From an uncultured virus (IMG/VR IMGVR_UViG_3300034061_005656) (taxonomy: Duplodnaviria; Heunggongvirae; Uroviricota; Caudoviricetes), in the IMG/VR virus record IMGVR_UViG_3300034061_005656: DNA of 64,000 bases; one strand, given 5' to 3'. Below, one piece after another: positions 1,434-33,756 of this stretch. Position 1 is the stretch's first letter. Each line of letters begins with the position of its first letter. The notes under the pieces were generated by a model. It saw only the letters and a program-made list of their open reading frames with translations. It had not been told where the DNA came from and made no database searches. Position numbers and translations under genes: made by a program.

Positions 1434-1450
<17 letters not shown>
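1091..1450 (+). CDS. Small virion structural protein, probable partner of the collagen fibre
   Basis: '[43 protein letters not shown]' resembles small beta-sandwich proteins that precede phage fibre genes; ATG 1091 preferred over TTG 1073; overlaps the next gene. Confidence 0.65.
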
Positions 1451-3509
<2,059 letters not shown>

Positions 3510-8460: not shown

Positions 8461-9009
8461 ATGAAGAAAAAGAAAATTACGAGAAAAACGTTTACAAAGC
8501 AGCATACTCAGCAACTTCGTTCTGAAATTCTTGCTTTACTAGAGCGGTCAAATCTTTACCTACAGGCAGAGCGCCGTGTACCGTTTGCTACCGCAATTGA
8601 AGTAGCAAACCGCGACTTGCGTAAAACACGTGATAGCGAGCCAAGCGCACGTATTTTTTCTGCAATTAAAGCAGTATCTTCGTACATGTCATTAGCGTCT
8701 CGCAATAAAGAGTCAACGATGGCGCTGAGCAACGCAGATCTTTTGCCTGTCGGTCACCCCAACTCTGCTCGCCCGCACGCGATGACAGCATCTGCACTAC
8801 GTCACGCTCAAGCGCAGTGGACAGCCGCCGATCCTTTAGTTGACCCATCTGCGCGTGAACTTGTCATTCGCGCCCACACGGCAACGCCTGGTTCAACTGA
8901 GCGCGCTCATGCGTTTGCTCGTTTGTCCGCCCTTGGCCCTAGTGCCGCGCCTTTAACAGCATCTGTTGACCCGATTCAATACGAAGACGATAACTACCCA
9001 AAAGAGTAG
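8461..9009 (+). CDS. 182-aa head-associated protein; short product of a predicted -1 frameshift gene
   Basis: 'NADLLPVGHP' is paralogous to the 347-aa protein motif; the ORF ends at the slippery site TAC CCA AAA GAG TAG. Confidence 0.75.
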   Translation: MKKKKITRKTFTKQHTQQLRSEILALLERSNLYLQAERRVPFATAIEVANRDLRKTRDSEPSARIFSAIKAVSSYMSLASRNKESTMALSNADLLPVGHPNSARPHAMTASALRHAQAQWTAADPLVDPSARELVIRAHTATPGSTERAHAFARLSALGPSAAPLTASVDPIQYEDDNYPKE

Positions 9010-9026
9010 CGGCTCGCAAGGGCCGC
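8997..9026 (+). promoter_or_regulatory. Predicted -1 programmed ribosomal frameshift signal
   Basis: In-frame X XXY YYZ heptamer C CCA AAA (8997-9003), 5-nt spacer, hairpin GCGGCTC-GCAA-GGGCCGC (9009-9026); the -1 frame is open into the 1591-aa ORF. Confidence 0.8.
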
Positions 9027-9074
9027 GTCCTTCGTCCACACATAGCTTCAGGCAATAGCCGCGCAGAAAAATCG

Positions 9075-12000
9075 TTGCGCGCTCGCATGCAGCGCCGCGA
9101 TCGTCTCGGACGATTTGCAGAAATGGGTGGAGGATTTTCTTTTAACTTTAAACTTTCTTCCGGTGGCCGCGTTTCAGCAGCCGGGAGAGTTGTTGGGCAG
9201 TCTGGTGAAGACTTAATTGAAGTTGAAATGCGTGGCGTTGCAGGAGTGCCTGATGGTATTTATTCTGCGCCATCACAAAAAGGCACTGCTGCAAAAGCTA
9301 TTCTTAATCTTGAAGGTACCAACGTAAAAACTGGAAATATTAAAAAAAGTATTGCAAAAGAAGACGAAATTGATATCAGTACTGTACAAGTAGCAGCCCA
9401 ACCCAGCGGGTGGACTCCGAGAAATACTGCGGACGGTGAACCTAAGGAATGGTCTTCTGAAGACGGTTTAGTTGTTCGCCAATTTGCTGACTCGTATGTA
9501 GCGTATGACACCGATAGCGCAGGCAATCCTGCAAATGAAATTGTTCGTGGCGAGTCGTGGGCGGACATTCAAAAAGCAACTGCTGATTACGAAAAAAGAG
9601 ATACACCGGCACCAGCTGCTAGCCAAGACACCAACGCTCGCAGTTCTGACAGGGCAACGTCTACGCAACTTCAGCCGACAGACAGTCTTAAAGAAGCAAA
9701 AGCTACTGGTCGTCCACTGTCTATTTTGCGTCCAGGAACAATGCCTAAAAGAACGCAAGCGGCTTATGATTCTATTGTCCAGAGCACAGACGGCGGGTAT
9801 AAGAAAGCCCGTGAGTTACTACAAAAACATAAAGAGCTTTTTGACAGAGTAAAAGAAAAAGAGGCCAGTAAAGGCACGTATACTTCTGAAGAAAATGCAA
9901 TTCTTAATGAATTCAATGACTCGCTAATTGTTACTGAGTCTCAGTGGAACGAGTTAAGTGAGGCCATAAAAGAAGACTACACGGCTGCCAAGGATGGCGA
10001 AGAGTCAGCGTTTACAGAACAAGAAGTGGCAGATATTGTTGAAGCTATCACACGACCATTAGACTACCGACACAAATTGGTGGTAAATAACGCTCGTGCA
10101 ATTAAAGACGGCGGACAAGATATTTATAGCGATGAACTAAGACTTCAAAACTCTGCAGAAGTACTTGAAAAAGCAGATATTGCTATTGCTTTTCCTCTGG
10201 AGGTTCTTGAAAAACTAATAACTGATGGAAGATTTAAGACACAGTTTGAAACAAACACTTCTGGCGGTACACTGTACACTCAAGGGAGAATGCAAGGTGA
10301 TATAGCTCAGTTTGGCTATCATCCGCGCAATGCGCCAGAAACACGTCCAGTCTACGGCTACCTGACTAAAGGTGGAGTTATAGACGATGAAAACTTTGAT
10401 GCAGTTCAAATGTACGGAGAGTTGCAATTTGTTCTTAAAAAAGATGCGCATTCACGTGCAACATACACGACACAGAACAGTCTTGGCTCCGGCTTAGTGC
10501 CGTCACCAATGGGTGTACCCAGCAAGGACGCGTCTGGAGCAGTCGGAAACCCAATGGCAATTTACGCAGAAGCACAAGTACACGGTGGAGTTAGTCTTAG
10601 TGACGTTGACTATGTCGTAGTTAATGTTGGGGAACGGCAACCATGGGCGACACATAAAGTTTCAGAAGAACAATTTGAGTCAATTAGTAAAATGCTTGAA
10701 AGTGTTGGCATACGTGTAGTCCCAGTTAGAGACGGCGAAGTTGTTAATACATGGGATGGCGGTAAGATTGTGTCAGGGCCCAAGACGCAGTCTGCAGAAA
10801 AAGAAAAAACAGCAAAAAGTTCTAAAGAAATACTTGATGAAGCTTCTGCTCTTGGAATTAAATGGCAAGGCAAGACTGTTGGAACATCAAAAGAAGAAAT
10901 TGACCGGCAAATAAATTCATCTGTAAAAACATTAAGAAAGAGTAAAGAGTTAGGACTAACTGATATTCCGGAACTTTCTGACAATATAAAGAAAATATTT
11001 AATGACTACGCTGACGGAAAAATAAGTCTAAAAGGAATGCGCGAAGCAATTCTCTTTACTGACCCCAAAGATGAAGGGTTAAGGCAGTGGGCGTTTGGAA
11101 ATCGGCAGCTCCCAATCGGTTGGAGAGTTGCTGCAGCAAAAGAAATTGCTTTGTCACAAAATGATACAGAGCTTGTAAAAAAAATTGACGATTTCATTAA
11201 GTTTATGGGAGACATAGACAATGCTTCCGATGAAAAACTTGAAGAACTTATTAGAAAAGCAAGCGTTGATTTTGGTAAAAACATGGGAAGCCCTATTATT
11301 CAGACTCCGGATGTGAAAAGAATAATCAGGGGAGCTGGTGGAGTGACAGTCCACGATAGCGACGAAAGAAAGTTAGACAATCTTTCTGGAACAACGTCGA
11401 TGGGCGACAGTATTACGATTACTGCTCGTAGAAAAGTGGAGACAATGTATGGCCTACCATTCACCGGGGAAAACACACCTGAAGATAAAGCAATAACAGC
11501 AATGAGGCCTATTTCTGGCCACTCTCTTCCAAAAGACTCTTATCTTGCAAGAGAGAAGAGAATGAAAAAAATATATGGTGAAGACTTTGTAACCATGTAT
11601 GACTTCCCCATCGGTTCCGACGTTGCAGATTTGTCACAAACAGCAAAATACGGCAGAAGCCATATCGTACTGAGTGACGCGGTAAACGAAAGAACAAAGG
11701 TAGTCAATGGCGACGCGGTAACAAGATTCGGTTCATCTGGCGCAGCTGTTGCCGACTTGGAATCAATCGATGAAGCAGGAATTGCATATGCAGACCCAAT
11801 TGGAATGCTCTTTTCGTCGATGACAGGCGATTCGGGTGCCTCCATAGCTGGGCCTCTTGACCCGTCATTTAAGTATAACGACAAATATAACGAAACGGCG
11901 ACCCTCGGAACATTTGACCCGAGCGAAGTGAGGGCAGTGTACATTGCAGACATTGGTCAAACAAGAAGAGAAATAGGCGATGTTCCGCAGGGAATGAATC

Positions 12001-13850
12001 CAGATTTTTATGGGAATCTAAGCGTAATTTTTGACTTTGCAAGAACACGAGACGAAATTCTTGATTCAAGAGGGACAGAGCTTGTTGCGCAAATAGGTGA
12101 ACCTCGTGGAGCAAACGGACAAATGGGTGCTCTTGAATATCTGCACCCAGAAAATGTAGAACTCTTTAATTCATCTATGACTTCAGCATGGCTCGACAGG
12201 TACGACGAAATATTTGGAGATATACCACGCGAAGTGTTAATACCAAAAGACGAGCCAGAGACAACCCCGTACGAGGCGTACCTAAGAGCAAAAATTACTC
12301 AATTTGATAAAAGTGGAAAAGGAACACTCAAAGAAAACGCTGGAACATTTGGCGAAACAAGAGATGGAAAAGAATTTGGCCTAGATGTAATCAAAGAAGA
12401 GCTTGACCGTGCCATTAGTGCCAGAAAGAATCGGACAAAGGGTGAAGAGAAATTTTCTTCAGATGGTTCTTTGTCACCAGAACCTGAGCCAGCTCAGAGT
12501 GCCGATAGACTCCCAAACAATTCAGTGAGTCTTGAAAAAGAAGCTTCCATGAGTTTTGTACCTAGTGATTACGAGTTAGAAAAAGCTAAAGCAGAACTAG
12601 AAAACCCGGTCAATGCCGCTATTGGGCAAGTGTGGAATATTGGCGGTAAAAAAATACACTTTGGTATGGAAAAAGATCGCAACGTAGTAAAGTACGGCGA
12701 AGACATGGATGACGTAGAAATAGTGCCTATTAACCCGTATAAAATCGCAGGCGTAGAAATGGGCAGTAAAGAAGGAAAAGAGCTCGCGCTTAAGTGGGCG
12801 TACGCTAGATCAGCATTAAGCAGCAATGACGGCACAGGCTATAAATCTACAAGTGAAGTTGACGCGCTTTTGTACGCTGGTGCTCGCGGAGACGAAGCGT
12901 CTTTGGCGCGACTCGAAGAACTGGCTGAAATTGGTAAAGAAAAAGTAGAAAAAATACGAAGTGAAAGACAGGCTGCACTCAAGGACATTGAACCGAAAAG
13001 TGAAACCAATCTTAAGGAGCAAATAGCCAAGGGTTTAGTATCAGAAAAAGATCAAAAGGCAGCAGAACGTATTTTAGGTGGCTCTATTGATGATTTGTAT
13101 GTGGTTCATCAAACTGAGTACGCGTTCCCTATTGACGATGAAGGCAACATTGCACTTAAGCCAGCGTCTGCGTACCCAACAACTCTTGAAGACGGTACAG
13201 AAATATTTGTACCTCGTCACACAATTCATACAGCTCTCAATCACGTTGTTGACCCTATTAAAGAGCGAGGCTGGCCTCCTAACAGTCACATAGCTATTAT
13301 TCCACTTCGCGCCTTATTAGAAGCAAATCCAGGCTCGATCGATAACATTCTTGCAGAAGATACATTTTTTACACCTGAAGCTGGTGGAGTACTAAAATTC
13401 CCTGCCGGGTCGTACAAAACAATAAGTAATGCTACAGATATTGTCTCTGCAAGAGAGCAAGTTTCGGAAGCGATCCGCGAACTTGCAAGACTTGGCTCCT
13501 ACGGCGCACAGGGAGATGAAATAAAGCCAATTATTTTTGAAGAAGGAATTATGGAAATTAGCAATACCGACGCACGCAGGGCGGCATTTAACGCTTTATT
13601 ACAAAGAATTTCAGTCGATTTAGGAATAACAAATCAAATTCACATGGGGACAAATTCGTCTCTTCTTGACAGAGCTGGAGACCAAGATGCGCAGGTGTCT
13701 CAAAATATTGAAAGGTTTTTTACACCAGATTTTCTTTCCAATTTGAGCATAAATCAGATCATGAGACTAACTGTCGGTCGCGACCGCTCGCTATACAGTG
13801 CAGAAACACAAGAGACCAGAGCCGCTCAACAGCAGCAATCTGTTACATAG
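9075..13850 (+). CDS. Giant putative virion-packaged effector 1 (N-terminal RDxxGRF module plus DUF3626-like domains); frame open from 8994
   Basis: N-terminal ~190 aa align by eye with the 4643-aa protein; 'GRFKTQFET..SGG..RPVYGYL..YGE...LK..RATYT..YAEAQVHGGVSL' and a degenerate second copy. Confidence 0.75.
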   Translation: MRARMQRRDRLGRFAEMGGGFSFNFKLSSGGRVSAAGRVVGQSGEDLIEVEMRGVAGVPDGIYSAPSQKGTAAKAILNLEGTNVKTGNIKKSIAKEDEIDISTVQVAAQPSGWTPRNTADGEPKEWSSEDGLVVRQFADSYVAYDTDSAGNPANEIVRGESWADIQKATADYEKRDTPAPAASQDTNARSSDRATSTQLQPTDSLKEAKATGRPLSILRPGTMPKRTQAAYDSIVQSTDGGYKKARELLQKHKELFDRVKEKEASKGTYTSEENAILNEFNDSLIVTESQWNELSEAIKEDYTAAKDGEESAFTEQEVADIVEAITRPLDYRHKLVVNNARAIKDGGQDIYSDELRLQNSAEVLEKADIAIAFPLEVLEKLITDGRFKTQFETNTSGGTLYTQGRMQGDIAQFGYHPRNAPETRPVYGYLTKGGVIDDENFDAVQMYGELQFVLKKDAHSRATYTTQNSLGSGLVPSPMGVPSKDASGAVGNPMAIYAEAQVHGGVSLSDVDYVVVNVGERQPWATHKVSEEQFESISKMLESVGIRVVPVRDGEVVNTWDGGKIVSGPKTQSAEKEKTAKSSKEILDEASALGIKWQGKTVGTSKEEIDRQINSSVKTLRKSKELGLTDIPELSDNIKKIFNDYADGKISLKGMREAILFTDPKDEGLRQWAFGNRQLPIGWRVAAAKEIALSQNDTELVKKIDDFIKFMGDIDNASDEKLEELIRKASVDFGKNMGSPIIQTPDVKRIIRGAGGVTVHDSDERKLDNLSGTTSMGDSITITARRKVETMYGLPFTGENTPEDKAITAMRPISGHSLPKDSYLAREKRMKKIYGEDFVTMYDFPIGSDVADLSQTAKYGRSHIVLSDAVNERTKVVNGDAVTRFGSSGAAVADLESIDEAGIAYADPIGMLFSSMTGDSGASIAGPLDPSFKYNDKYNETATLGTFDPSEVRAVYIADIGQTRREIGDVPQGMNPDFYGNLSVIFDFARTRDEILDSRGTELVAQIGEPRGANGQMGALEYLHPENVELFNSSMTSAWLDRYDEIFGDIPREVLIPKDEPETTPYEAYLRAKITQFDKSGKGTLKENAGTFGETRDGKEFGLDVIKEELDRAISARKNRTKGEEKFSSDGSLSPEPEPAQSADRLPNNSVSLEKEASMSFVPSDYELEKAKAELENPVNAAIGQVWNIGGKKIHFGMEKDRNVVKYGEDMDDVEIVPINPYKIAGVEMGSKEGKELALKWAYARSALSSNDGTGYKSTSEVDALLYAGARGDEASLARLEELAEIGKEKVEKIRSERQAALKDIEPKSETNLKEQIAKGLVSEKDQKAAERILGGSIDDLYVVHQTEYAFPIDDEGNIALKPASAYPTTLEDGTEIFVPRHTIHTALNHVVDPIKERGWPPNSHIAIIPLRALLEANPGSIDNILAEDTFFTPEAGGVLKFPAGSYKTISNATDIVSAREQVSEAIRELARLGSYGAQGDEIKPIIFEEGIMEISNTDARRAAFNALLQRISVDLGITNQIHMGTNSSLLDRAGDQDAQVSQNIERFFTPDFLSNLSINQIMRLTVGRDRSLYSAETQETRAAQQQQSVT

Positions 13851-13960
13851 CCAGTTTTTGCTGAAAAGCAGCAAAGTAGTAATGTTAACCCGCCCAGAAC
13901 CTAGTAATATAAACAACAGCCGCCCTTGACTACTAAGCGCAGAAAGTACGAGCTTATCAA

Positions 13961-16900
13961 GTGAACGAAGAAAACAACGATTTCGACCCAATTATTGCTG
14001 CGTTAGGCTTTGGCCTCGGTGGTAACTCGAAGGCCGCGCGATCAATGCGCGCGAAACTTCAGCGTCGTGACCGCAGAGGTCGATTTGCCTTTCAGGGCGG
14101 CGGATTCATGTTCAATATCCGCTTTCCGGATGGAGTTCGCAAGCTGTCTGGTCGTGTTGTAGGCGCATCTGGAACTGAAGATGTTGAAATTGAAGTAAAA
14201 GGTAATGACCGTATTCCAGACGGTATCTACGCACTGCCATCAAATAAAGGCGATTCTGTAGCCGCTATTCTTCCCGAGGACGCTCTAAAGGATCTTCCAG
14301 ATGCTGACGTTCGCGCGTCCGAGCGTCTTGCCATTAACGCGGCAGATCTTAAGCGAATGGAGCAGCCTACAGGCTGGACAAAGCAGGTAACTCCTGAGGG
14401 CGAGCCAGAAATCTGGACTTCAGAAGACGGATACTTTGCTAAAAAAGACGGCGATACTTTTACACTTCACCGTGCAGATCTTAGTGACAACTCAATTGGC
14501 GAAGAAGTCGCTCGTGGGAACTCCTGGGCAGACGTACAAAAAGCCGCCCTCGATGACCAAGATGACTATGAAAAAGTTCTTGAGGCAGCGAATACTGCCG
14601 AAAAACCTAGCGCGCCGGGAGCCTCCGCTGCAGATTCTCAAAAAAGAACAAAAGAAAGACTCGAAGCCGCGCGTAAAGCTGGCATTGATTACGGCTCGTT
14701 GACAGACGATGAAATCGCCAAAATCGCGCAGGCGGAATCTGATGAACGATACGCCGGTGGAGTTTGGAAAACTGTCCCGGCTGCAATCCCTAAAGGCGGA
14801 TACAGGACTTCAAAAGGCAACTGGAAAGAGTACGATGAGCCAGATGGCCCACCGACTAGGAAAGAAATTACTGGTGAACAAGCAAAACAAATTCGTCAGC
14901 AGTTTACAGACGCAAGGAAAGAAACTCTTTCTCAGCTACGTGATGCAGTAAATGCCGGAGAAATCGAAAATCTTTCAGATGTTCGTGACATTGCCGAAGG
15001 TCTTAACGTAGCTGGCCAAGCTAATGCCGCTCGTGTAGCAAAGCAAAAGCTTCGGTTTAGCTATAATGGAAAAGATCGCGAAATTACGCCTACAGAAACG
15101 TATTTTAATCCTAAGACCAAAAAAGATAATATTGTTGGTCTTGATGAAAATGGTGAAAAACGTACTTTTACATCGGATAAAATTTTTCCTCCAAATAAAA
15201 AGTCAGAGCAGCCTACTAAAAAAGCCGCCAAAGCGCCAGAGGCACTTGCTCTTGACCCAAACGAAAATCTGGTGCAGCAAATCACAGATGCGGTAGCCGA
15301 TGGCTTAAACGTTCGATTTAATTACAGTGGAAAAGAGCGAAACGTTACCCCGCTTCGCGTGTGGCGTAACCCTAAAACTGAAAAAACAAACCTTACCGCT
15401 AGAGAAGCTGACGGCGCAGAAAAAAACTTTACTCTTGACAAAATCGAGCCACCAACCGGCGCCCCAGACGAGCCACCAACCGGCGGTCCCGGCGAGCCAC
15501 CAACCGGCGGCCCAGACGGAGGCGATTCTCTTGGTTTTGACGACACAGAAGCACTCGTAGATGACATCTATGCTCGCGATTTACTTGGTCTAGAGAATAG
15601 CACTGCAAAGCGCAACTCACTGATGAAGCGTCTTTCCAACGTAATGGCAGACGAAGACCGTGGTATTGGTTTTGACGATTTTGAGCAAGCACTCAATGAA
15701 ATGTACAGCAACGACGAAATCTCTCTGCAAGAACGCAACAATGCTATGACGTATGTTTCGGAGAACATAAGCGATTACGCAGAAGGCGACTTCGGCCCAG
15801 GCGAGCCACCAACCGGCGGCCCAACTGCACCAACCGGTGGCCCAGGAGACTCTCCACAATTCTATAGCACTGACTTTAGTCAAGAGGCTACCTACAACGG
15901 AGAGCCAGTCACTCTTGAGTGGACAAATGATGACCCAGAGTTTGGAATTAGAATAGTAGACTCTGACGGAGAACTAATTGACACTCAGTCGTCTGAAGAC
16001 TATGACTCTCCTCGTGAGTTTGCCGAGTTTATTAGAAGCGAGTTTGGTCAAGAAGTCTACGATACCATTGTTGTAGACGAAGGCACAGGTGCCCCCGCCG
16101 AGCCAGCCGAACCACCAACAGGCGCCCCATCTCGCGATAGTAACATTGATGAGCTGTTTTCTGAATTTGTAAAAGATGATGACCTTTTCAATCTTGAAAG
16201 GTTTTTAGAAGATAGTGTTGATACCTCTGAACAAAACTTTAGAGAGTACTTAAACGACAATGGAATTGACGACGACGTAAGAAACGAAGATGACAAGGCT
16301 AGAGTAGACGATGCAAGAAGAGATTTCTTTGCAGAACTTTATTCTGAAAACTCAGATCGTCTGCGTGAAAAGTTTGCCGAGTACATTAAAAACCGAGACC
16401 CAGAGCTGTACGACGAGCGCATCGGCGAGCCACCAACCGGCGGCCCATCAGCACCAACAGAAGGCCCAGGCGAGCCACCAGAGCAGCACATTATTTCTCT
16501 TAAGGTAGGGACTGCAAAACTTGACAAAGAAGGGTTTGTTCAAACTGGCGTAAGTAAAACGCCTGTTGAAGGCGGGCCTTACGAGTCAACTGGCAATATT
16601 GCTGCTGACATTAGAAAAGAAGCACAGTATGTTATTGACGGCAAAATAAAAGGTGCTAATCCAGATAATGACAATCAATATACTCAGTTTGAAAGATTAA
16701 GCGCTGTCATTGAATTTGAGCGCGAGCGAGGAAATCTGACGGCAGATGACGCGTCATGGCTTCAGTCGTACAATAATGCAGTTTTCCAGTATAGAAACAC
16801 TGCGATGTCTAAAGAAGAATTAAACAATGCAGTTTATTCAATTAATCAGCTAACAGAGCTTCTTGACAAAAAACTGTCTAATTTGCAAAATCCGGCTGCA

Positions 16901-27892: not shown

Positions 27893-27905
27893 GGCTACTA
27901 TAAAA

Positions 27906-28265
27906 ATGAAAAAAAGAAAACTAAAGTTCAATTCAGAAATAAAGCCATTTAGCAGTGATTCGTATATCAACGAACCTTCTGTTATTGAAGGAAAAAATAA
28001 CTATCGTCGCTTGGTATTTAACATCCGTTCTCAGCGCGGGAGAAACGAATCTGGGGAAGTTATAGAAGTCTTAACTGCTGAGTCAGATAGCCGCGTTTTT
28101 AGGTACAATCTTGATAAAAACTACCCAGCGGTCGATTTTAATGAAAAATCAGGCACAGCTGAATTTACCTCCAATGGTGCACAGTATAAAATAAGAGCAT
28201 TACAAGAAGATGACAAATCGTGGATCATCAACTTTAGTCTCCCCGAAGAAACAGAAAATAGCTAG
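27906..28265 (+). CDS. Hypothetical protein (~119 aa) directly after the giant effector
   Basis: ATG 27906 (MKKRKLKF) avoids overlap with the upstream gene; no family recognised. Confidence 0.65.
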   Translation: MKKRKLKFNSEIKPFSSDSYINEPSVIEGKNNYRRLVFNIRSQRGRNESGEVIEVLTAESDSRVFRYNLDKNYPAVDFNEKSGTAEFTSNGAQYKIRALQEDDKSWIINFSLPEETENS

Positions 28266-28273
28266 GATTCACT

Positions 28274-28984
28274 ATGGCAGATGACACAAAAATAGAAGCC
28301 AAAAAATGGCCAACTTCGTTAAAAGAAGAAGACGAGCTTTACGCTATAGTCGATTCAACTAATAGCGAAGTCAAGTATTTGGTTTACGTTAGTTCTGACA
28401 AAAACGCTACTCTTGTACGAGACAATGCTTCTTGGGTTAGAGTTTTTGAAGTATTTACGGAAGAAATCGATGACCCAGATCTATATAATGAAAATGTAGA
28501 AATTGATTTCATTGACTACTATGACAATCTCGCGCTTGCCGGGTCTAAAGTCCCTGTAAATAGGGCTGAAAGCGGTCTCACTGCCGCTGTAAGTGACTGT
28601 CCACCGCCTACGCAGGATATTGGCCTTAATCTTAAAAACCGCAAAAATGCCATTGATACCGCAATGTATGGGCCACTTAACCCAGCAGAGCCAAACACAG
28701 AGTACTGGCAAAAAATTGCTGACGAATGGTCTGTAGATCTTGAAACAGCAAAAAAGCAACGCTGCGGCAATTGCGCAGTATTCGTAATTACTTCTCAAAT
28801 GAAAGACTGCATTAAGCAAGGTCTTGAGATACCTGGCGGAGTGGCCTACAACTTTGACAACTGGGATAAGATTGACGAAGCTGGCGAACTCGGGTATTGT
28901 GAAGCATTTGACTTTAAATGTGCTTCAGCTCGCACATGTAGAGCATGGGTCGGTGGTGGCCCCGTCAAAGATGATATAAAATAA
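28274..28984 (+). CDS. Two-domain head-associated protein with Cys-rich C-terminal domain
   Basis: 'GLTAAV' linker, then 'CPPPTQDIGLNLKNR..YGPLNP..RCGNCAVF..GYC..FDFKCASARTCRAW'. Confidence 0.75.
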   Translation: MADDTKIEAKKWPTSLKEEDELYAIVDSTNSEVKYLVYVSSDKNATLVRDNASWVRVFEVFTEEIDDPDLYNENVEIDFIDYYDNLALAGSKVPVNRAESGLTAAVSDCPPPTQDIGLNLKNRKNAIDTAMYGPLNPAEPNTEYWQKIADEWSVDLETAKKQRCGNCAVFVITSQMKDCIKQGLEIPGGVAYNFDNWDKIDEAGELGYCEAFDFKCASARTCRAWVGGGPVKDDIK

Positions 28985-29002
28985 GTTTGAGGTATTGAGC
29001 AG

Positions 29003-32000
29003 ATGATTAAGTTCTTTGGAGAATCTCCTCGGTATATTCTGTTTACCGATGGCGCTAACGGTGTCATCATTGACAAGTATACCAATATGGTAGATGAGGT
29101 AGGAAGTCTCGGTCTTTTGGCATCTGCTCTTCCATGGAAAAAAGTAGACTGTAAGATCGATCAAGCGCATTATGACCTGGCCGCAGGCGCGCTCGCAGAT
29201 TTAGAAGTCAAGGTTATAACTGCGTCTGGCAGAATGTATACGATACCCAAAGGCGTTCAAGCAGAAGCAAAGAAAGCTTTGGAATGGCGTAAAGAGCACA
29301 AGCGTGGTGGAACTCCAGTGGGCGTAAACACCGCCCGCACTCTTGCCAATGGCGGTCAAATCGGTATTGAAAAAGTTCGTCATATTGCTAAGTACTTTCC
29401 TCGTCATGAAATTGACAAAAAAGCAAAAGGCTACGAGCCAGGCGAAGACGGCTTTCCATCACGAGGGAGAATCGCATGGGCTCTTTGGGGTGGCGATGCT
29501 GGATGGCGTTGGGCCGAAGCAATCGTTGAACGTGAAAATAAAAAAGTTGTTCGCGCCGACGGGTACATTATTGAGCACGACGGGAGCTCATTTGAAGACT
29601 ACGAAGCTCCTTCAATGTACGATGCAGACGTTGACTTTTTTTCGGACGAAAACTCAGTTTTTATTGCGCGAACTCACGATGACGGTTCAGGAATAGACCG
29701 TTTATACACGATTGACGAAGACGGTGGATCGCTTGTTTGGGACGACGGCCAGTGGGACGATCTTTCTTTAGGCGACAATGTAGACATTTACAGCATTGAT
29801 CGTGCGCTTGATTCTGAAGTTGAAGACAACACAGAATATTCTCACATCGTAATTGACACGGCATCAGCACTTATTGCGTCCGCGTATCTTCAAACTTTAC
29901 CGTTTACGCCAGTTTCAATTGACAATATTAACGAAGAAGAAGCAGCTCTTATCGCCTCTGCGCTTGATGATATTGACTGGACAATTATTGATACAATTAC
30001 TGCGGCCGGAGAAGAAGGTCTTGAAGGCGATTCAACGCCAGGCGAGTACACGCCGGAAGAACGCTCACAAAGAGCACGCTCACAGGTACGCGACAAGTCA
30101 GGCAAGTTTGCAGCAAAAGGTTCTCGAGTAGTAGTTGGCGGAGATTCTTCGCAACGCGGGAATATTACAAAAATCAACGCCGCGAGTCAAAGTGTAACTG
30201 TTCAACTTGATAGTGGAGAGTCCGTTGACGTTCCAGCAAATCAAACTGAAAAAGAAGAAGCGTTTACGCCGCAGACAACTCAAGCACCGCCTGTCCAAGA
30301 AAGACTAGACGTTTCTGGAATTCTTGGTCAACCACGTCAGCCTATAAACAATCCAAAGGCTGTCATTCCGAACGCGCTGCCCGCTCTTACTTCTGATCAA
30401 CTTGGTCAAATGCTCGCTGATTTCCCTGCCTGGGTAAAAAGCCAACGCGATTTTGCAGAAAAAAATAGGTACACGCCTCCTAGCAAAGAGCAAATAAACA
30501 AGCAAATACAAGATCGTCGCAAGCAGACAGAAAAGGCTTTTGGAGAAAAGCTTATTACTACAGATCTTAAGCAGCACCCGCTTTTTAAGAACTTGTTTAA
30601 GAAAAATCCAAAGTACAATTTATACTACGACTATAAATTTACAGCATCAGGCGCAGTAGTAAGCGCACTAGAAACCGCAAAGCCTGTAACACCACAAACG
30701 TCAGATGTTCAGCCTCTTTACATGGCAATCGTGTCTCCAGAAGATCCGTCTGCAGTTTTTGATCTTATTGCGGTTGTACCCGCAAGCGAAACTTCGACAA
30801 GCCCAGCTACTTTCAAACGTGAAGACGCTAAATGGGTGCCGGACGCTCAGATTCTTGCAGACTTGATGTCCCCAACACCTCCGCCTGTTGTGCCGCTTGA
30901 CGGAAACAACTTGGTTGATGTTTTAGAGCAAGTTGACAAAACGTCCGCTCCCGCTGCTGCAGCCGATTCTGAGCCTGCAGAGCCACTTGCAGCCGCTGGC
31001 GGAGCTGATCGCAATCGTGGAAACGCAGAAAAATTGCGCAGGTACTGGACAATCGGTAAAGGTGCTATAAAAATTCGCTGGAACACTCCAGGAGACTGGA
31101 CACGTTGCTACCGTCAGCTTTCAAAATACATGGGACCACGAGCAAAAGGATATTGCTCTCTTCGTCATAAAGAAATGACAGGCGTGTGGCCCGGAAGCAA
31201 GTACAACGTTGGCAAAAAGAAAAGAAACGTACGTGCTAGCGGACTTTTGGAAATTAACGTCCCAAGTGAAGAGCAAGTACTAAACGCTTTGCATCTTCAG
31301 GCGCGCATTAATGACGCTCGAGAGCGAGTGCTTCTTGCTGGCGGAGCGGTAGCTACCGAAGGCGCTAAATTTACGATTCCTCTTGTAATTCCAGAAGACA
31401 TTGAGTCCGGCGATGGAAGAAAATTCCGCAAGGGTTCAATAGAAGTACGTGATTTACCGCTTCCTCTGTTGTGGCAAGTTAAAACTGCTGATGGCCACGA
31501 CGGCTCGTTTGTAGTTGGAAGAATTGACCGCATGGAGCGAACAGAAAACGGTATCGGAAATGCTTACGGAGTATTCGACGTAAGCGCGTACGGCCGTGAA
31601 GCAGAGCGAATGGTTCGTGATGGATTTATTCGTGGAGTTTCTGCGGATCTTGACAAGTTCGAAGCCAGTGAAGGCGAAAGCGAAGACGACGTCGAGGCTG
31701 CGAAAAAAGACGATAAAAAGAAAAAAATTGGCGGAGGCAAGATTGACATCGATCGTGCCCGCGTCATGGCAGTTACAATTGTACCCAAGCCTGCATTTCA
31801 AGAATGCAGAATCTATTTAGAAAACACAGATGCAGGCGCAAGCCAGGAGGAAGACATGTTAAATGTCCCAGACGGAATTTATGTAGAAGACATGGAAGGC
31901 GCAGAAGCGCAGTCAATTGTCGCATGTGGAATGGTTGCTGGAGCTATCCCAGACGTACCGCCTGCCGAGTGGTTGCAAAATCCAAAATTGACTGGACCTA

Positions 32001-33097
32001 CGCCTCTTACAATTGGCGATGACGGCCGAGTGTTTGGTCACATCGCAGCGTGGCATGTTAACCACATTGGAATGACTGCTGGCACAAAGCCACCACGCAG
32101 TAAAAGCAAGTACGCGTACTTCCACACTGGAGTGCTACGCGCCGATGACAGTAAAGACTACCCAGTTGGCCAGCTAACACTTGCCGGCGGTCATGCGTCT
32201 CTTGAAGCAAGCGCGCTCGATGCAGCACGTCACTACGACGATACAGGATCCGCAATTGCTGATGTGCACGCTGGAGAAGATGCGTACGGCATTTGGGTTG
32301 CAGGTGCTCTTCGTTCATCTGCTACACCAGAGCAAATTCGTGCATTGCGCGCATCTGCTCCTTCCGGCGACTGGCGCCCAGTTAATGGCGCGCTTGAGCT
32401 TGTAGCCGTTTGCCAAGTAAACGTTCCAGGATTCCCAATCGCTCGTGCTCGAGTAGCATCTGGCCAAGTGTACGCGCTTGTTGCCGCTGGTGCTCAAGTT
32501 TTAGCAAAAATGAAATCAGATCCTTTAACCGAGCTTGCTCAGCGAGTTGAAACTCTTGAAGCAAAGAAAGGCCACGAGCTTTCTACCAAAGCTGAAGCAG
32601 CAAGGCAAAAAGTTGCAGCAGTAAAAACTGAACAGCAGGCTACTCTTTCTACCAAAGCTGCTGAGCTTTCCATGCGTGTTCGCGGACCAAAAATTGAAGA
32701 ACAAAAAGAAGAAGTAGATGCTAGCGTCGCTCCTGATGAACTTCAAGCTCGTATCGCATCTGCGGCTGCTGAAGCACAATTGGCAAGCATCTCTATGCGC
32801 GCTCGCAAGCGCCTTGCAAAAGAAGGCAAGGCACTTCCCGACGGCTCGTACCCAATTCGTAACGCAAGTGACTTGCGCAACGCGATTCAATCGTACGGTA
32901 GGTCAAAGCCTGGCGATCGTGCAAAGGTTCGTCGTCATGTTGTAAAGCGTGCCCGTGCTCTTGGCAAGACAGAGATGATTCCAGAAAATTGGAAAACAGC
33001 GTCAATGATTGCCGAAGATATTGCAGATATTCGCGCACAGGTGGCATCTGCTAAAGCCGCTTTAGACGCAAATATTACTGAAATTACAGAAAGTTAG
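29003..33097 (+). CDS. Capsid maturation protease polyprotein (1364 aa, about 8 modules)
   Basis: HK97-type protease-like segment 'LPLLWQ..GHDG..VVGRID..RGVSADLD..VTIVPKPAF'; second segment 'GRVFGHIAAW..GGHA..PSGDWR..VNVPGFP'; accessory 'WALWGGDAG', 'LRRYW..KIRW.TPGDWTRC' and 'DGSYPIRN' modules; lies before the capsid gene. Confidence 0.8.
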   Translation: MIKFFGESPRYILFTDGANGVIIDKYTNMVDEVGSLGLLASALPWKKVDCKIDQAHYDLAAGALADLEVKVITASGRMYTIPKGVQAEAKKALEWRKEHKRGGTPVGVNTARTLANGGQIGIEKVRHIAKYFPRHEIDKKAKGYEPGEDGFPSRGRIAWALWGGDAGWRWAEAIVERENKKVVRADGYIIEHDGSSFEDYEAPSMYDADVDFFSDENSVFIARTHDDGSGIDRLYTIDEDGGSLVWDDGQWDDLSLGDNVDIYSIDRALDSEVEDNTEYSHIVIDTASALIASAYLQTLPFTPVSIDNINEEEAALIASALDDIDWTIIDTITAAGEEGLEGDSTPGEYTPEERSQRARSQVRDKSGKFAAKGSRVVVGGDSSQRGNITKINAASQSVTVQLDSGESVDVPANQTEKEEAFTPQTTQAPPVQERLDVSGILGQPRQPINNPKAVIPNALPALTSDQLGQMLADFPAWVKSQRDFAEKNRYTPPSKEQINKQIQDRRKQTEKAFGEKLITTDLKQHPLFKNLFKKNPKYNLYYDYKFTASGAVVSALETAKPVTPQTSDVQPLYMAIVSPEDPSAVFDLIAVVPASETSTSPATFKREDAKWVPDAQILADLMSPTPPPVVPLDGNNLVDVLEQVDKTSAPAAAADSEPAEPLAAAGGADRNRGNAEKLRRYWTIGKGAIKIRWNTPGDWTRCYRQLSKYMGPRAKGYCSLRHKEMTGVWPGSKYNVGKKKRNVRASGLLEINVPSEEQVLNALHLQARINDARERVLLAGGAVATEGAKFTIPLVIPEDIESGDGRKFRKGSIEVRDLPLPLLWQVKTADGHDGSFVVGRIDRMERTENGIGNAYGVFDVSAYGREAERMVRDGFIRGVSADLDKFEASEGESEDDVEAAKKDDKKKKIGGGKIDIDRARVMAVTIVPKPAFQECRIYLENTDAGASQEEDMLNVPDGIYVEDMEGAEAQSIVACGMVAGAIPDVPPAEWLQNPKLTGPTPLTIGDDGRVFGHIAAWHVNHIGMTAGTKPPRSKSKYAYFHTGVLRADDSKDYPVGQLTLAGGHASLEASALDAARHYDDTGSAIADVHAGEDAYGIWVAGALRSSATPEQIRALRASAPSGDWRPVNGALELVAVCQVNVPGFPIARARVASGQVYALVAAGAQVLAKMKSDPLTELAQRVETLEAKKGHELSTKAEAARQKVAAVKTEQQATLSTKAAELSMRVRGPKIEEQKEEVDASVAPDELQARIASAAAEAQLASISMRARKRLAKEGKALPDGSYPIRNASDLRNAIQSYGRSKPGDRAKVRRHVVKRARALGKTEMIPENWKTASMIAEDIADIRAQVASAKAALDANITEITES

Positions 33098-33105
33098 AAG
33101 CAGTT

Positions 33106-33633
33106 GTGGCACGTCCAAAAGGCACGTACGTCTCAGGTGTAAATCAGCCTCGAGACATGAAAGGCAAGTTCAGAACAGTTCTTGCCCGCATTAAACAAGA
33201 TCTTGGCAATGCAGGCCTTCAAAACGTTATTGAAAAAGTAGAAGAAACTGAAGGTCTAAATAACGCCGGCAACTACAGTGCTGCTGTTGCAGCCGCCGCT
33301 GACCTTTTGAGCGTTATTGATCGTATAGACTCGGGCGGCCTAAACCCAGATGCCCTTGAAAATATTAGGTCTTCAACCGCTGCTCTTGGGCAATTGATTG
33401 CTAACCTGCCTTTACCGTTCGGAGATCAAACAGACAAGCTCAGATATACTGACTTGCCGCCAGTGCTTAAAAACATGATCGATGACATGATGGATCGTGT
33501 AGAGCAAAAAATCGGCAAAGAAGACGCCGATGCTGCTACAGAAAATCTTAGAAAATTCAAGTCTGGTTCTAGCGTAATGTCGCAATCAGACGTATCTTCT
33601 GAGATGAACGTTATGCTAAGGCTACTTACATAA
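33106..33633 (+). CDS. Helical head-associated protein with N-terminal QPRDxxGKF motif
   Basis: 'NQPRDMKGKFR'. Confidence 0.7.
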   Translation: MARPKGTYVSGVNQPRDMKGKFRTVLARIKQDLGNAGLQNVIEKVEETEGLNNAGNYSAAVAAAADLLSVIDRIDSGGLNPDALENIRSSTAALGQLIANLPLPFGDQTDKLRYTDLPPVLKNMIDDMMDRVEQKIGKEDADAATENLRKFKSGSSVMSQSDVSSEMNVMLRLLT

Positions 33634-33645: not shown

Positions 33646-33756
33646 AAAAGATAGGCAAGTGCCTCCACACTGAGTGTGTTTGGAGTCCCTTTCCTTGGAC
33701 AGAAACCCGATGTAGACCTATAGGTGGTCTACCCTGACTGGCCCGGAGGAGGGACA

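What the first reader, a model, noticed from the sequence alone, without database searches (positions are those of the whole stretch)
8461..33633. Candidate virion-loaded, protease-processed, frameshift-tuned multi-effector system in the head module
Seen: about 25 kb between portal and capsid carries two giant paralogous proteins with a shared N-terminal module and different enzymatic cargo, a shared RDxxG(R/K)F motif in four proteins, a shared LTAA-like motif at domain borders, and two matching slippery-site plus hairpin signals. Established: head-module proteins with a conserved N-terminus and variable toxin C-termini occur in phages (MuF polymorphic toxins), and T4 Alt is a capsid-packaged, protease-processed ADP-ribosyltransferase injected with the DNA. 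Inference: this is an analogous system with no MuF domain that I can recognise. A targeting motif would load polyproteins into the prohead, the maturation protease would cut them, and frameshifting would set cargo stoichiometry.
Basis: partly seen in the sequence, partly recalled or inferred. Interest (0 to 1): 0.93.

Follow-up and report, generated by a model that had tools for sequence, protein, structure and literature searches.

The report
Giant cargo proteins in phage head module
An uncultured lake actinophage encodes, between its portal and capsid genes, two giant multi-enzyme proteins whose shared N-terminal tag also marks the head protease and a scaffold-like protein, which suggests a new way of loading injected effector proteins into a phage head.

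Summary
The observation largely holds. The 1,591-aa and 4,643-aa proteins share only an N-terminal ~200-aa module (37% identity, E 3e-35). RDxxG(R/K)F occurs four times in the six-frame window, against 0.08 expected, and all four are in head-module proteins. A profile of the module finds 453 protein clusters. The top 150 match at their N-terminus, are 173-7,004 aa long, and carry mosaic cargo (exonuclease, UvrD helicase, ADP-ribosyltransferases, NUDIX and others). No MuF domain or known fold was detected. The RD motif is conserved at two further sites in the protease polyprotein of 26 of 29 related loci. A hydrophobic-T-A-A motif is a conserved island in the hypervariable linker of 12 of 12 capsid proteins, so it is a plausible protease cleavage site. 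The slippery site at 8997 is credible. It joins a 182-aa N-domain to the 1,591-aa protein, which is one reading frame in distant relatives, and the -1 frame evolves like coding sequence. The site at 23992 is no better than chance. The concept matches the "polyvalent proteins" of Iyer et al. 2017. The anchor module, the shared motif and the frameshift appear new. Packaging, cleavage and frameshifting are all inferred, not shown.

The parts
4865..6628 (+). Portal protein. A conserved L-T-A-A lies at aa 45 (nt 4997-5008).
   Evidence: phrog_776 E 2e-103. The motif is present in 6 of 6 distinct portal homologues.
8461..9009 (+). N-ext, a 182-aa helical domain. In most relatives it is the first ~170-200 aa of the giant protein. 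It ends PLTAS-VDP...NYPKE*.
   Evidence: In L007-L011 the homologues are fused in frame to the RD module. In 136 of 155 family proteins the RD motif lies more than 80 aa from the N-terminus. The AlphaFold2 model is helical over residues 1-170. No Pfam, PHROG or NCBIfam hit.
8997..9026 (+). Candidate -1 programmed frameshift signal. The heptamer C CCA AAA (8997-9003) is in phase with N-ext. A 5-nt spacer holds most of the UAG stop (9007-9009), whose last base is the first base of the stem. A 7-bp stem with a GCAA loop follows (9009-9026).
   Evidence: -14.6 kcal/mol, z -2.69; 3 differences in 53 nt here against 34 in 138 nt outside, Fisher p 0.0015, versus L006; a strain variant changes the U-G pair to U-A, and 3 further assemblies show no indels.
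8994..13850 (+). Giant protein 1 (1,591 aa from TTG 9075). The -1 frame is open from 8994. The RD motif is at nt 9096-9116 and the DUF3626 (SopF-family) domain at aa 376-469 (nt 10200-10481).
   Evidence: The -1 frame at 9003-9074 shows 6 synonymous and 4 non-synonymous codon changes versus L006.
13961..27892 (+). Giant protein 2 (4,643 aa):
- N-module, aa 20-215 (RD motif at nt 14066-14086)
- two WYL-like barrels, about aa 370-500
- eight GEPPTGGP-type linkers
- DEDDh exonuclease, aa 2087-2258 (nt 20219-20734)
- C..LTAA..C motif, aa 2325 (nt 20933-20944)
- UvrD helicase, aa 2396-3000 (nt 21146-22960)
- ART1, aa 3482-3613 (nt 24404-24799)
- ART2, aa 3681-3857 (nt 25001-25531)
- a widespread C-terminal domain, aa 3880-4370
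   Evidence: Both ART domains keep R / STS / EQE.
23763..23868 (+). Internal copy of the protein's own C-terminal motif (W.Y.AGMPL..LP.NWRE.ATPGEIADIEAAMAKA). The second copy is at 27771-27876.
   Evidence: 106-nt direct repeat, 86% identical, 4008 nt apart.
23992..24018 (+). Second CCCAAAA heptamer (in phase, aa 3345) with a 5-bp hairpin at 24005-24018. Judged probably not functional.
   Evidence: The -1 frame stops after 3 codons. The hairpin has z -0.01 to -0.09. No relatives were found to test it.
28274..28984 (+). 236-aa protein with a conserved LTAA (nt 28577-28588) just before a Cys-rich C-terminal domain.
   Evidence: The motif is [LIVM]TAA in 11 of 14 distinct homologues, VVAA in 2 and VFFA in 1.
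29003..33097 (+). Head protease polyprotein (1,364 aa):
- N-terminal domain
- disordered linker with ITAA (nt 29996-30007)
- RD motif (nt 30089-30109)
- KOW/Tudor-like barrel, aa 366-419
- protease-like region, aa 989-1215 (nt 31967-32647)
- coiled-coil tail
   Evidence: phrog_18402 'head maturation protease' E 9.7e-53. Models and fold matches. RD motif found in 26 of 29 related loci.
33106..33633 (+). 175-aa scaffold-like domain protein that begins with the RD motif (nt 33151-33171). In most relatives it is fused to the C-terminus of the protease polyprotein.
   Evidence: It is in the same ORF as the protease in 16 loci and in a separate ORF in 10.
33724..35664 (+). Major capsid protein with a ~225-aa N-terminal helical and acidic extension. 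A conserved M-T-A-A (nt 34366-34377) lies at the border with the HK97-like part.
   Evidence: phrog_777. [VM]TA[AST] is present in 12 of 12 distinct homologues, and T216 and A217 are invariant inside a hypervariable stretch.

Best explanation
This is the head-assembly operon of an uncultured freshwater actinophage. Its nearest named relative is Actinomycetia phage DSL-LC01.

Anatomy. Between the portal and capsid genes lie two giant 'polyvalent' effector proteins. Each begins with the same ~190-aa module: a basic, disordered arm carrying an almost invariant QRRDRxG(R/K)F motif, followed by small beta-barrels. Each then continues with a mosaic of enzyme cassettes:
- a SopF-family DUF3626 domain in the first protein;
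- a DEDDh exonuclease, a UvrD helicase and two catalytically intact ADP-ribosyltransferases in the second.
The same RDxxG(R/K/Q)F motif opens two units of the head protease polyprotein: a KOW-like barrel, and the scaffold-like C-terminal domain, which this phage encodes as a separate 175-aa protein.

Proposed mechanism, all inferred:
1. The RD arm is a shared docking signal. It brings cargo, protease and scaffold-like units into the assembling prohead.
2. The prohead protease then cuts exposed linkers at hydrophobic-(T/V)-A-(A/V) sites. The conserved QEAP(V/M)TAA site would remove the capsid protein's N-terminal extension. PLTAS would separate the helical N-ext domain from the RD module.
3. 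The cargo stays in the head with the DNA and is ejected into the host at infection. There it ADP-ribosylates host proteins and acts on DNA.
4. In this phage and one 91%-identical relative, N-ext is a separate ORF. It is joined to the 1,591-aa protein by a -1 ribosomal frameshift at C CCA AAA (8997), giving much free N-ext and little fusion protein.

Shown: the homologies, the motif conservation, the mosaicism, and the sequence features of the frameshift site.
For: Family.
- A profile of N-ext plus module finds 453 cluster representatives at E<=1e-3, of which 227 are at E<=1e-30. All of the top 150 match from residue 41 or earlier.
- Among 155 family proteins lengths run from 173 to 7,004 aa (median 2,509), and the RD motif lies within the first 260 aa in 145.

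Variable cargo.
- RNase_T, UvrD, ADPrib_exo_Tox, NUDIX, KTSC, WYL, a PI3_PI4-kinase-like domain or DUF3626 occur in different combinations. Of 12 giants scanned at E<=1e-4, 3 had no Pfam hit.
- BLAST of the 4,643-aa protein against the family shows segments shared with anywhere from 0 to 147 members.
- The 91%-identical relative L006 has a 679-codon open frame where the window has a 1,618-codon frame, between the same two ends.

RD motif.
- It occurs 4 times against 0.078 expected.
- It is invariant in the module alignment: Q34 R35 R36 D37 R38 G40 F42.
- It is found at both protease-polyprotein sites in 26 of 29 related IMG/VR loci. Of the misses at the first site, L023 and L024 hold full-length frames and L025 a frame cut off at the locus end, with no match to the pattern. 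The three misses at the second site are truncated loci.
- It is also present in DSL-LC01 and in Pumpernickel gp84 as RDxxGQF.
- It is kept in every lineage where the downstream unit is a separate gene, and at the extreme N-terminus of module-only proteins (P0011 starts MQRRDRKGRF). This argues for a function beyond separating domains.
- It lies in a disordered arm (pLDDT 32-36) in the giant-protein model.

Cleavage motif.
- The capsid-protein island is present in 12 of 12 homologues.
- It is also conserved in the 236-aa protein (11 of 14), in the protease linker (11 of 22 strict, the rest VVAA or IVAV types; pLDDT 29-36) and in the portal (6 of 6).
- The 4,643-aa protein starts where PLTAS ends in fused relatives.

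Frameshift.
- Distant relatives are fused in frame.
- Conserved residues (ASGNSRAEK) are encoded upstream of the first start codon.
- Codon changes in the -1 frame are 6 synonymous to 4 non-synonymous, against 2:8 and 0:8 in the other two frames.
- The hairpin has z -2.69.
- Local conservation is elevated, p 0.0015.
- A strain variant changes a G-U pair to A-U, and 3 further assemblies covering the site show no indels.

Context. The ART domains hit the Alt-like phrog_802 at E 2.2e-11. Iyer et al. describe phage polyvalent proteins encoded among virion genes and predicted to be packaged.
Against: - There are no virion proteomics, expression data or solved complexes for any member. Packaging, cleavage and ejection are inferred from gene position and analogy.
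- A 500-kDa protein is a very large passenger for a capsid.
- The exonuclease-helicase could be an ordinary intracellular replication or repair enzyme.
- The hydrophobic-TAA motif is short. In the cargo parts of 155 family proteins it is not enriched: only 56 of the 199 scorable sites lie beyond residue 300, so the apparent excess (201 observed, 62 expected) comes mainly from conserved N-ext positions.
- The copy inside the 4,643-aa protein sits in a conserved Cys..Cys context and may be structural.
- The frameshift rests on one independent relative (L006) plus near-identical strains. A start codon (TTG here, ATG in L006) is conserved 7 codons before the RD motif, so independent initiation is possible.
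- The second slippery site has no support.
- No zincin-type HExxH peptidase motif is present, unlike many described polyvalent proteins.
Confidence: 0.5

Rival explanations
1. The RD motif is not a docking signal. It could be the recognition or cleavage site of the head protease, or a structural or nucleic-acid-binding N-terminal cap of the KOW/Tudor-like barrel that follows it.
For: - It sits at unit borders of a polyprotein.
- In two of its three contexts it directly precedes a small barrel of KOW/Tudor type (Z 7.6, rmsd 1.9 over 56 residues; SGF29 tandem Tudor, E 8.5e-3).
- In the protease model it is ordered (pLDDT 82-85).
- The arm is very basic.
Against: - The capsid protein has no RD motif although it has a conserved linker site.
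- The motif is retained where the unit is already a separate gene or starts at residue 1. That is unnecessary for a mere cleavage site.
- In the 175-aa protein it is followed by a helix, not a barrel.
Confidence: 0.2
2. The giant proteins are not virion cargo. They are intracellular enzymes for host take-over, replication or repair that merely lie in the late operon, and the N-terminal module serves oligomerisation or regulation.
For: - There is no direct evidence of packaging.
- The UvrD and DEDDh exonuclease domains resemble cellular enzymes.
- The size (up to 7,004 aa) is awkward for a capsid.
- Promoter-like and terminator-like counts equal those of shuffles, so transcription timing is unknown.
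Against: - The position between portal and protease/capsid genes is conserved in all relatives examined.
- The motif is shared with the protease and scaffold-like proteins.
- Alt-like ARTs are a known packaged class, and phage polyvalent proteins lie among virion genes.
Confidence: 0.15
3. The break at 8997-9075 is an ordinary gene split without frameshifting. N-ext and the 1,591-aa protein are made separately, the latter from TTG 9075 or ATG 9087.
For: - A start codon is conserved at the same place (TTG in the window, ATG in L006).
- Module-only proteins without N-ext exist: the 4,643-aa protein, P0009, P0011 and P0057.
- In-phase slippery heptamers are common: 20 in the 4,643-aa ORF.
- On the minus strand the hairpin also scores as terminator-like.
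- Of the 4 differences in a 99.6%-identical strain, 2 fall in the hairpin.
Against: - Family residues are encoded upstream of that start, with no ATG, GTG or TTG between 8994 and 9075.
- The substitution pattern there is biased to synonymous changes only in the -1 frame.
- The heptamer, spacer and stem are unchanged in L006 while the flanks differ at 25% of sites (34 of 138 nt).
- The strain's change in the stem keeps the pair.
Confidence: 0.35

Closest known systems
Polyvalent proteins of phages and conjugative elements (Iyer, Burroughs, Anand, de Souza, Aravind 2017, J Bacteriol, PMC5512222; I read the abstract, passages, and sections 32 and 33)
   Same: Very large proteins that combine disparate enzymatic domains (ART, helicase, nuclease, NUDIX, kinase-like). 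They are encoded among phage virion genes next to a portal-terminase system, and are predicted to be packaged, injected with the DNA and cut into units.
   Different: - No zincin-like metallopeptidase motif (no HExxH).
- No MuF, DarA, methylase-SNF2 dyad or Pfam LPD domain detected.
- The family is defined instead by an undescribed N-terminal anchor (N-ext plus RD module).
- Processing would fall to the prohead protease.
- I did not see that paper's supplementary domain lists, which are kept on an FTP site. They may hold this module among its 40 novel domains.
MuF polymorphic toxins of temperate phages (Jamet et al. 2017, BMC Biol, PMC5576092; search listing and start of abstract only)
   Same: A head-module protein next to the portal gene, with a constant N-terminus and variable C-terminal effector domains.
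   Different: - No Phage_Mu_F domain by Pfam, and no MuF-named fold match.
- The cargo is a chain of up to a dozen modules, several of them widely conserved, not one terminal toxin.
- No immunity gene was seen.
T4 Alt and internal proteins with a capsid targeting sequence (passages in PMC5512222, and listings; details of the targeting sequence are recalled)
   Same: A packaged ADP-ribosyltransferase. A short N-terminal signal shared by several internal head proteins. Processing by the prohead protease.
   Different: - A different motif (RDxxG(R/K)F rather than the T4 signal with L/I-x-E cuts).
- A siphovirus of actinobacteria with an HK97-type capsid protein that carries its own N-terminal extension.
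- Cargo 5-10 times larger.
- The motif is also present in the protease itself.
Encapsulin cargo-loading peptides (recalled, no call)
   Same: A short conserved peptide on a disordered arm, shared by unrelated cargo, that docks to the inside of an HK97-fold shell.
   Different: The peptide here is N-terminal or internal rather than usually C-terminal, the sequence is unrelated, and binding to the shell is not shown.
Programmed -1 frameshifts of phage structural genes, such as the tail assembly chaperone G/GT (annotated in GMA2; the rest recalled)
   Same: An in-phase X XXY YYZ heptamer, a short spacer and a stem-loop. A short abundant product and a long rare fusion product share an N-terminal domain.
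   Different: It lies in a head-module cargo gene. It is limited to one small clade, and relatives encode the fusion in a single frame.

Membership tests
MuF polymorphic toxins | Phage_Mu_F (PF04233) domain at the N-terminus | tested here: not met
   No Pfam hit at E<=0.01 in any ORF from portal to capsid, in 13 homologues or in 12 giant relatives at E<=1e-4. No MuF-named match among the listed Foldseek PDB and BFVD rows (best 49-50 of each search) for the two models. The fold result alone would be inconclusive.
MuF polymorphic toxins | Constant N-terminus with variable C-terminal effector, encoded next to the portal gene | tested here: met
   synteny.
MuF polymorphic toxins | Cognate immunity gene downstream of the toxin | not tested
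   The small ORFs 27906-28265 and 28274-28984 have no family hit. The second is conserved in relatives whose cargo differs, which argues against an immunity role.
Polyvalent proteins (Iyer et al. 2017) | Two or more domains of disparate biochemical activity in one polypeptide | tested here: met
   DEDDh exonuclease, UvrD helicase and two ART domains in one 4,643-aa ORF.
Polyvalent proteins (Iyer et al. 2017) | Encoded among virion (late) genes of a phage with a portal-terminase system | tested here: met
Polyvalent proteins (Iyer et al. 2017) | Zincin-like metallopeptidase for self-processing (common, not universal) | tested here: not met
   No HExxH or HxxEH in the three large proteins, and no peptidase Pfam hit.
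Polyvalent proteins (Iyer et al. 2017) | Delivered into the host together with the DNA | not testable with these tools
   Needs virion proteomics or infection experiments.
T4 Alt-type packaged ADP-ribosyltransferase | R-S-E type ART domain related to Alt | tested here: met
   PF03496 E 4.1e-28; phrog_802 'Alt-like' E 2.2e-11. R3512/STS/EQE and R3759/STS/EQE are intact.
T4 Alt-type packaged ADP-ribosyltransferase | N-terminal targeting signal removed by the prohead protease | not testable with these tools
   Only a candidate signal (RD arm) and candidate cut sites (TAA type) were found.
Programmed -1 ribosomal frameshift, site 8997 | In-phase X XXY YYZ heptamer, 5-9 nt spacer and stable downstream structure | tested here: met
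   C CCA AAA in phase, a 5-nt spacer and a 7-bp stem at -14.6 kcal/mol, z -2.69.
Programmed -1 ribosomal frameshift, site 8997 | The -1 frame continues into a conserved protein and shows coding constraint before any start codon | tested here: met
   (6 synonymous to 4 non-synonymous; small sample of 10 codons).
Programmed -1 ribosomal frameshift, site 8997 | Signal conserved in relatives that share the split | tested here: met
   One independent relative (L006) keeps the heptamer, stop and stem. One strain variant keeps the pairing. A pattern scan of viral contigs found only these two contigs.
Programmed -1 ribosomal frameshift, site 8997 | Trans-frame product made | not testable with these tools
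   Needs a reporter assay or mass spectrometry.
Programmed -1 ribosomal frameshift, site 23992 | Stable downstream structure and a meaningful -1 product | tested here: not met
   Hairpin z -0.01 to -0.09. The -1 frame stops after 3 codons. Conservation could not be tested because no relatives of this stretch were found.

The most novel reading that the evidence does not exclude
A previously undescribed cargo-loading system of HK97-type phage heads. A short RDxxG(R/K)F docking peptide on a disordered basic arm is shared by 0.2-0.8 MDa polyvalent effector proteins, by the prohead protease and by a scaffold-like protein. It directs all of them into the procapsid, like an encapsulin loading peptide or the T4 targeting sequence. 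A hydrophobic-TAA cleavage code then releases the units. In one clade a -1 frameshift sets the ratio of free anchor domain to anchor-cargo fusion. The His-rich, conserved N-ext domain might itself be a new autoprocessing or portal-binding domain.
Probability: 0.3. Interest if true: 0.8.

Novelty: new variant of a known kind. Interest (0 to 1): 0.62.

Why it matters
How phages choose which proteins travel inside the head and enter the host with the DNA is known in detail for very few systems (T4, P1, P22, N4). This family is large: 453 clusters at 50% identity, with proteins up to 7,004 aa. Its anchor module matched no family in Pfam, NCBIfam or PHROGs, and my literature searches found no description of it.

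It offers three concrete and cheaply testable sequence signals:
- a candidate loading peptide;
- a candidate protease cut motif;
- a candidate frameshift.

If the RD arm is a loading signal, it would explain how half-megadalton effector chains are packaged, and it could serve to load foreign proteins into phage heads. The cargo list (ARTs, a SopF-type domain, exonuclease-helicase, NUDIX) also points to early host take-over or counter-defence activities in poorly studied freshwater actinobacteria.

Tried and rejected
- Complex prediction: capsid protein with the RD module (aa 22-110 of the 4,643-aa protein). The tool gave no verdict, so this is neither support nor evidence against.
- Fold searches of the N-ext plus module model. 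PDB had no match at E<=1e-3; the best was the SGF29 tandem Tudor at 8.5e-3. BFVD had none at E<=1e-3.
- ESM Atlas gave no usable feature hits for the 175-aa protein or for N-ext.
- PDB sequence searches of the protease fusion and of the DUF3626 region found nothing at E<=1.
- By eye I suspected a PI3/4-kinase-like domain at aa 1720-1960 of the 4,643-aa protein. Pfam at E<=0.5 and BLASTP against P0011 did not support it, so I dropped it.
- Relatives of the site-2 region: none in viral contigs or metagenome contigs.
- tblastn of the module and of N-ext against cultured phages hit only DSL-LC01 and three Microbacterium phages, so no proteomics-backed relative was found.
- Gordonia phage GMA2 has no giant gene in its head module.
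- Rfam: no family anywhere in the window.
- Promoter-like and terminator-like sites are no more frequent than in shuffles.
- No RNA holder was listed among the public runs.
- The earlier-findings index had nothing.
- The tail-chaperone region 39540-39720 has no in-phase heptamer to compare with.
- I first read the hydrophobic-TA[AS] excess in the family (201 observed, 62 expected) as general enrichment. I then rejected that, because most sites are conserved N-ext positions.
- Literature: 'RDxxG' with 'phage' found 0 papers. 'DSL-LC01' found 1 paper, and none of the 12 passages I saw (of 21 places) discusses these genes. 'Microbacterium phage' with 'Pumpernickel' found 1 unrelated paper.

Full report
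**What is there.** All genes of the region are on the + strand.
- PHROGs identifies the portal (4865-6628, E 2e-103), the major capsid protein (33724-35664, E 1.4e-87), and a head-tail adaptor and major tail protein downstream.
- The capsid protein is 81% identical to that of Actinomycetia phage DSL-LC01, a lake-water metagenome phage, and 54-56% identical to jumbo siphoviruses of Microbacterium such as Pumpernickel.
- Both relatives have the same gene order: portal, small genes, a giant ORF (3,289 aa in DSL-LC01; 2,235 aa in Pumpernickel), a small gene, a large 'capsid maturation protease' (split into three ORFs in DSL-LC01; one 1,534-aa ORF in Pumpernickel), then the capsid gene.
- None of the 12 passages I saw from the DSL-LC01 paper (of 21 places that name the phage) discusses these genes.
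- The window's own assembly is not held. A 33.8-kb IMG/VR record is identical over the parts it covers.

**The observation.**
- The 1,591-aa and 4,643-aa proteins align only at their N-termini (87/238 identical, E 3e-35).
- Pfam finds DUF3626 in the first. This is the family of the Salmonella effector SopF; that SopF is an ADP-ribosyltransferase is my recollection, not a call result.
- Pfam finds RNase_T, UvrD helicase and ADPrib_exo_Tox in the second. A second ART domain appears when the segment is scanned alone (E 3.2e-9). Both ARTs keep R, STS and EQE.
- RDxxG[RK]F occurs four times in all six frames of the 64 kb, always in these head proteins, against 0.078 expected. No shuffle out of 200 gave more than one.

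**A large family with a constant N-terminus.**
- Relatives from metagenomes show that the usual architecture is one protein: a helical ~170-aa domain (here called N-ext), a linker that often reads PLTAS, the RD arm, beta domains, then cargo.
- A profile of N-ext plus module, run against 1.84 billion representatives, found 453 proteins at E<=1e-3, 349 at E<=1e-10 and 227 at E<=1e-30. All of the top 150 match from their first 41 residues.
- In 155 family proteins the RD motif lies within the first 260 residues in 145. Lengths run from 173 to 7,004 aa with a median of 2,509.
- Cargo differs from protein to protein: RNase_T, UvrD, ART, NUDIX, KTSC, WYL-like barrels, PI3_PI4-kinase-like, DUF3626, and 3 of 12 giants with no Pfam hit at E<=1e-4.
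- BLAST of the 4,643-aa protein against the family shows a mosaic. The N-terminus is shared with 147 members, aa 1200-1400 with 95, the helicase with 23, the ARTs with 4-7 and a C-terminal domain with 49; aa 700-1000 is shared with none. The same cassettes sit at other positions in shorter members.
- Even the 91%-identical relative L006 has a 679-codon open frame where the window's frame is 1,618 codons long, between the same two ends.
- Inside the 4,643-aa gene a 106-nt copy (86% identical) of its own 3' end lies 4,008 nt upstream. This looks like the scar of a cassette added by recombination.

**Is it MuF or another known family?**
- Pfam, NCBIfam and PHROGs give no hit for N-ext or the module.
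- An AlphaFold2 model of a natural fusion (mean pLDDT 66.6) shows a helical N-ext, a disordered RD arm (pLDDT 32-36) and beta domains.
- Foldseek finds nothing at E<=1e-3 in PDB or BFVD. The weak matches are Tudor/SH3-like barrels.
- The N-terminal part of the protease fusion (pLDDT 67.2) contains a ~110-aa domain that in BFVD is fused to prohead proteases, XkdF, portal and Dps proteins (53 matches at E<=1e-3; none of the 50 listed is named MuF).
- Directly after its RD motif that protein has a KOW/Tudor-like barrel (Z 7.6, rmsd 1.9 over 56 residues; a middling, generic score).

**The RD motif is shared by three kinds of head protein.**
- In 29 related IMG/VR loci the protease polyprotein carries QVRDxxG(K/R/Q)F near residue 365 in 26. 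Of the three misses, L023 and L024 hold full-length frames and L025 a frame cut off at the locus end, with no match to the pattern.
- It carries QPRDxxG(K/R)F(R/Q)xVLAR at the start of the scaffold-like domain in 26. The three misses there are truncated loci.
- DSL-LC01 and Pumpernickel carry both sites, with Q for K/R in the latter.
- The scaffold-like domain is in the same ORF as the protease in 16 loci and in a separate ORF in 10. The window belongs to the second group.
- The motif is kept whether or not the unit is a separate gene, and some cargo proteins begin with it directly (P0011: MQRRDRKGRF). It therefore does more than mark a cut site.
- I read it as a shared docking or loading signal. 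A protease exosite or a structural cap of the barrel cannot be excluded.

**The TAA-type motif.**
- Within the window the motif is only weakly over-represented.
- Across relatives the capsid protein shows QEAP(V/M)TA(A/S/T) as an island of invariant residues (Q207, A212, T216, A217) inside a hypervariable acidic stretch. It lies about 15 residues before the conserved APADRRP that opens the HK97-like part. It is present in 12 of 12 distinct sequences.
- The same four-residue pattern is conserved in the 236-aa protein (11 of 14), in the disordered linker about 30 residues before the protease's RD motif (11 of 22 strict, the rest VVAA or IVAV types; pLDDT 29-36), and at residue 45 of the portal (6 of 6).
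- It is also conserved at the N-ext/module junction (39 of 136 strict, 110 of 136 with a looser pattern).
- The 4,643-aa protein, which lacks N-ext, starts exactly where the junction motif ends in fused relatives.
- This fits a prohead-protease cut site, but caution is due. The family-wide excess (201 observed, 62 expected) comes mostly from conserved N-ext positions: only 56 of the 199 scorable sites lie beyond residue 300. The copy at aa 2325 also sits in a conserved Cys...Cys context.

**Frameshifting.**

*Site 1 (8997).*
- C CCA AAA is in phase at codons 179-181 of N-ext. The stop follows two codons later, and a 7-bp stem with a GCAA loop starts 5 nt after the heptamer.
- A -1 slip enters the frame of the 1,591-aa protein 27 codons before its first possible start. 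Those codons encode family residues (…IASGNSRAEKS…), and distant relatives are fused in frame there.
- Against L006 the heptamer, spacer and stem arms are unchanged and the loop has two changes. There are 3 differences in 53 nt here against 34 in 138 nt outside (p 0.0015).
- Codon changes in the -1 frame are 6 synonymous to 4 non-synonymous, against 2:8 and 0:8 in the other frames.
- Contigs of three further lake metagenomes cover the site without indels. One strain changes the U-G pair of the stem to U-A.
- Against a frameshift: only one independent relative shares the split, and a start codon is conserved 7 codons before the motif.
- I put programmed frameshifting at about 0.6.

*Site 2 (23992).*
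- It is the same heptamer, in phase, but a slip would end the protein after three codons.
- Its hairpin equals shuffles (z about 0).
- In-phase heptamers are common (20 in this ORF).
- No relatives could be found to test conservation.
- Its position just after the internal copy of the C-terminal motif is curious, but that is not evidence.
- I put it at about 0.1.

**Comparison with what is known.**
- The closest described class is the polyvalent proteins of Iyer et al. 2017. These are multi-domain proteins of phages and conjugative elements, encoded among virion genes, predicted to be packaged and injected, and often processed by a zincin-like peptidase.
- The window meets the defining features that can be tested (disparate domains in one chain; head-gene context). 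It lacks the peptidase, MuF, DarA and methylase-helicase modules.
- It is therefore a new variant. It has an undescribed anchor, a motif shared with the assembly machinery, and probably processing by the prohead protease.
- T4 Alt and its targeting sequence, and encapsulin loading peptides, are functional analogies, not relatives.

**Verdict.** It is still interesting in its particulars, and every mechanistic step remains to be shown experimentally.

Noticed in passing
window 6638-7135 and 7163-8206: A Dps/ferritin-like gene (Pfam Ferritin E 2.9e-16; phrog 'DNA binding protein') and a DUF5824 protein follow the portal gene. An ORF of matching size and position follows the portal ORF in six related loci (L005-L007, L009-L011), and in L008 a single 557-aa ORF stands in place of the two. 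A Dps-like protein in a head module might be another packaged protein.
   Followed up: partly
window 1434-3509: A 691-aa collagen-repeat protein (Pfam Collagen E 3.5e-28; tail-fibre PHROGs) lies upstream of the portal, among packaging genes rather than with the tail genes.
   Followed up: no
window 15436-17431: Eight copies of a 31-nt repeat encoding GEPPTGGP-type linkers separate modules in the first third of the 4,643-aa gene. They are possible recombination points for cassette exchange.
   Followed up: no
window 7163-7500, 28700-28984; L001 19100-19344: A Cys-rich module (…C.NC…GYC.F…) recurs at the N-terminus of the 347-aa protein, at the C-terminus of the 236-aa protein and at the end of DSL-LC01's second protease ORF, where it is annotated 'high potential iron-sulfur protein'. 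Small metal-binding modules seem to move between head-module proteins.
   Followed up: no
L006 10534-12570 versus window 8994-13850: In the 91%-identical relative, the open frame that corresponds to the window's 1,591-aa protein is 679 codons long (1,618 codons in the window) and keeps the same N- and C-terminal ends. The whole middle cargo has been lost or replaced.
   Followed up: partly
window 33082-33110: The protease fusion and the 175-aa protein are in different frames with no slippery heptamer at the junction, whereas 16 related loci encode them as one ORF. This is an independent, recurrent split of the polyprotein just upstream of an RD motif.
   Followed up: partly
window 15030-15460: Two tandem ~55-aa repeats (…YNGK.R.ITP…NPKT…F..DKI) score weakly as WYL (E 0.004). 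They recur, together with KTSC domains, in many family members. These are small barrels of unknown role in the cargo.
   Followed up: no
window 8700-8800 (N-ext aa 85-125): N-ext has a string of conserved His, Asp and Glu positions (LLPVGHP.STR.HAMTASAL.HA.A.WIAAD … PGS.ER.HAF). The model has low confidence here. This could be a metal site or an active site.
   Followed up: no
window 9009-9026, minus strand: The site-1 hairpin, read on the minus strand, is listed as terminator-like because the slippery A-run becomes a T-run. No minus-strand gene is nearby.
   Followed up: no
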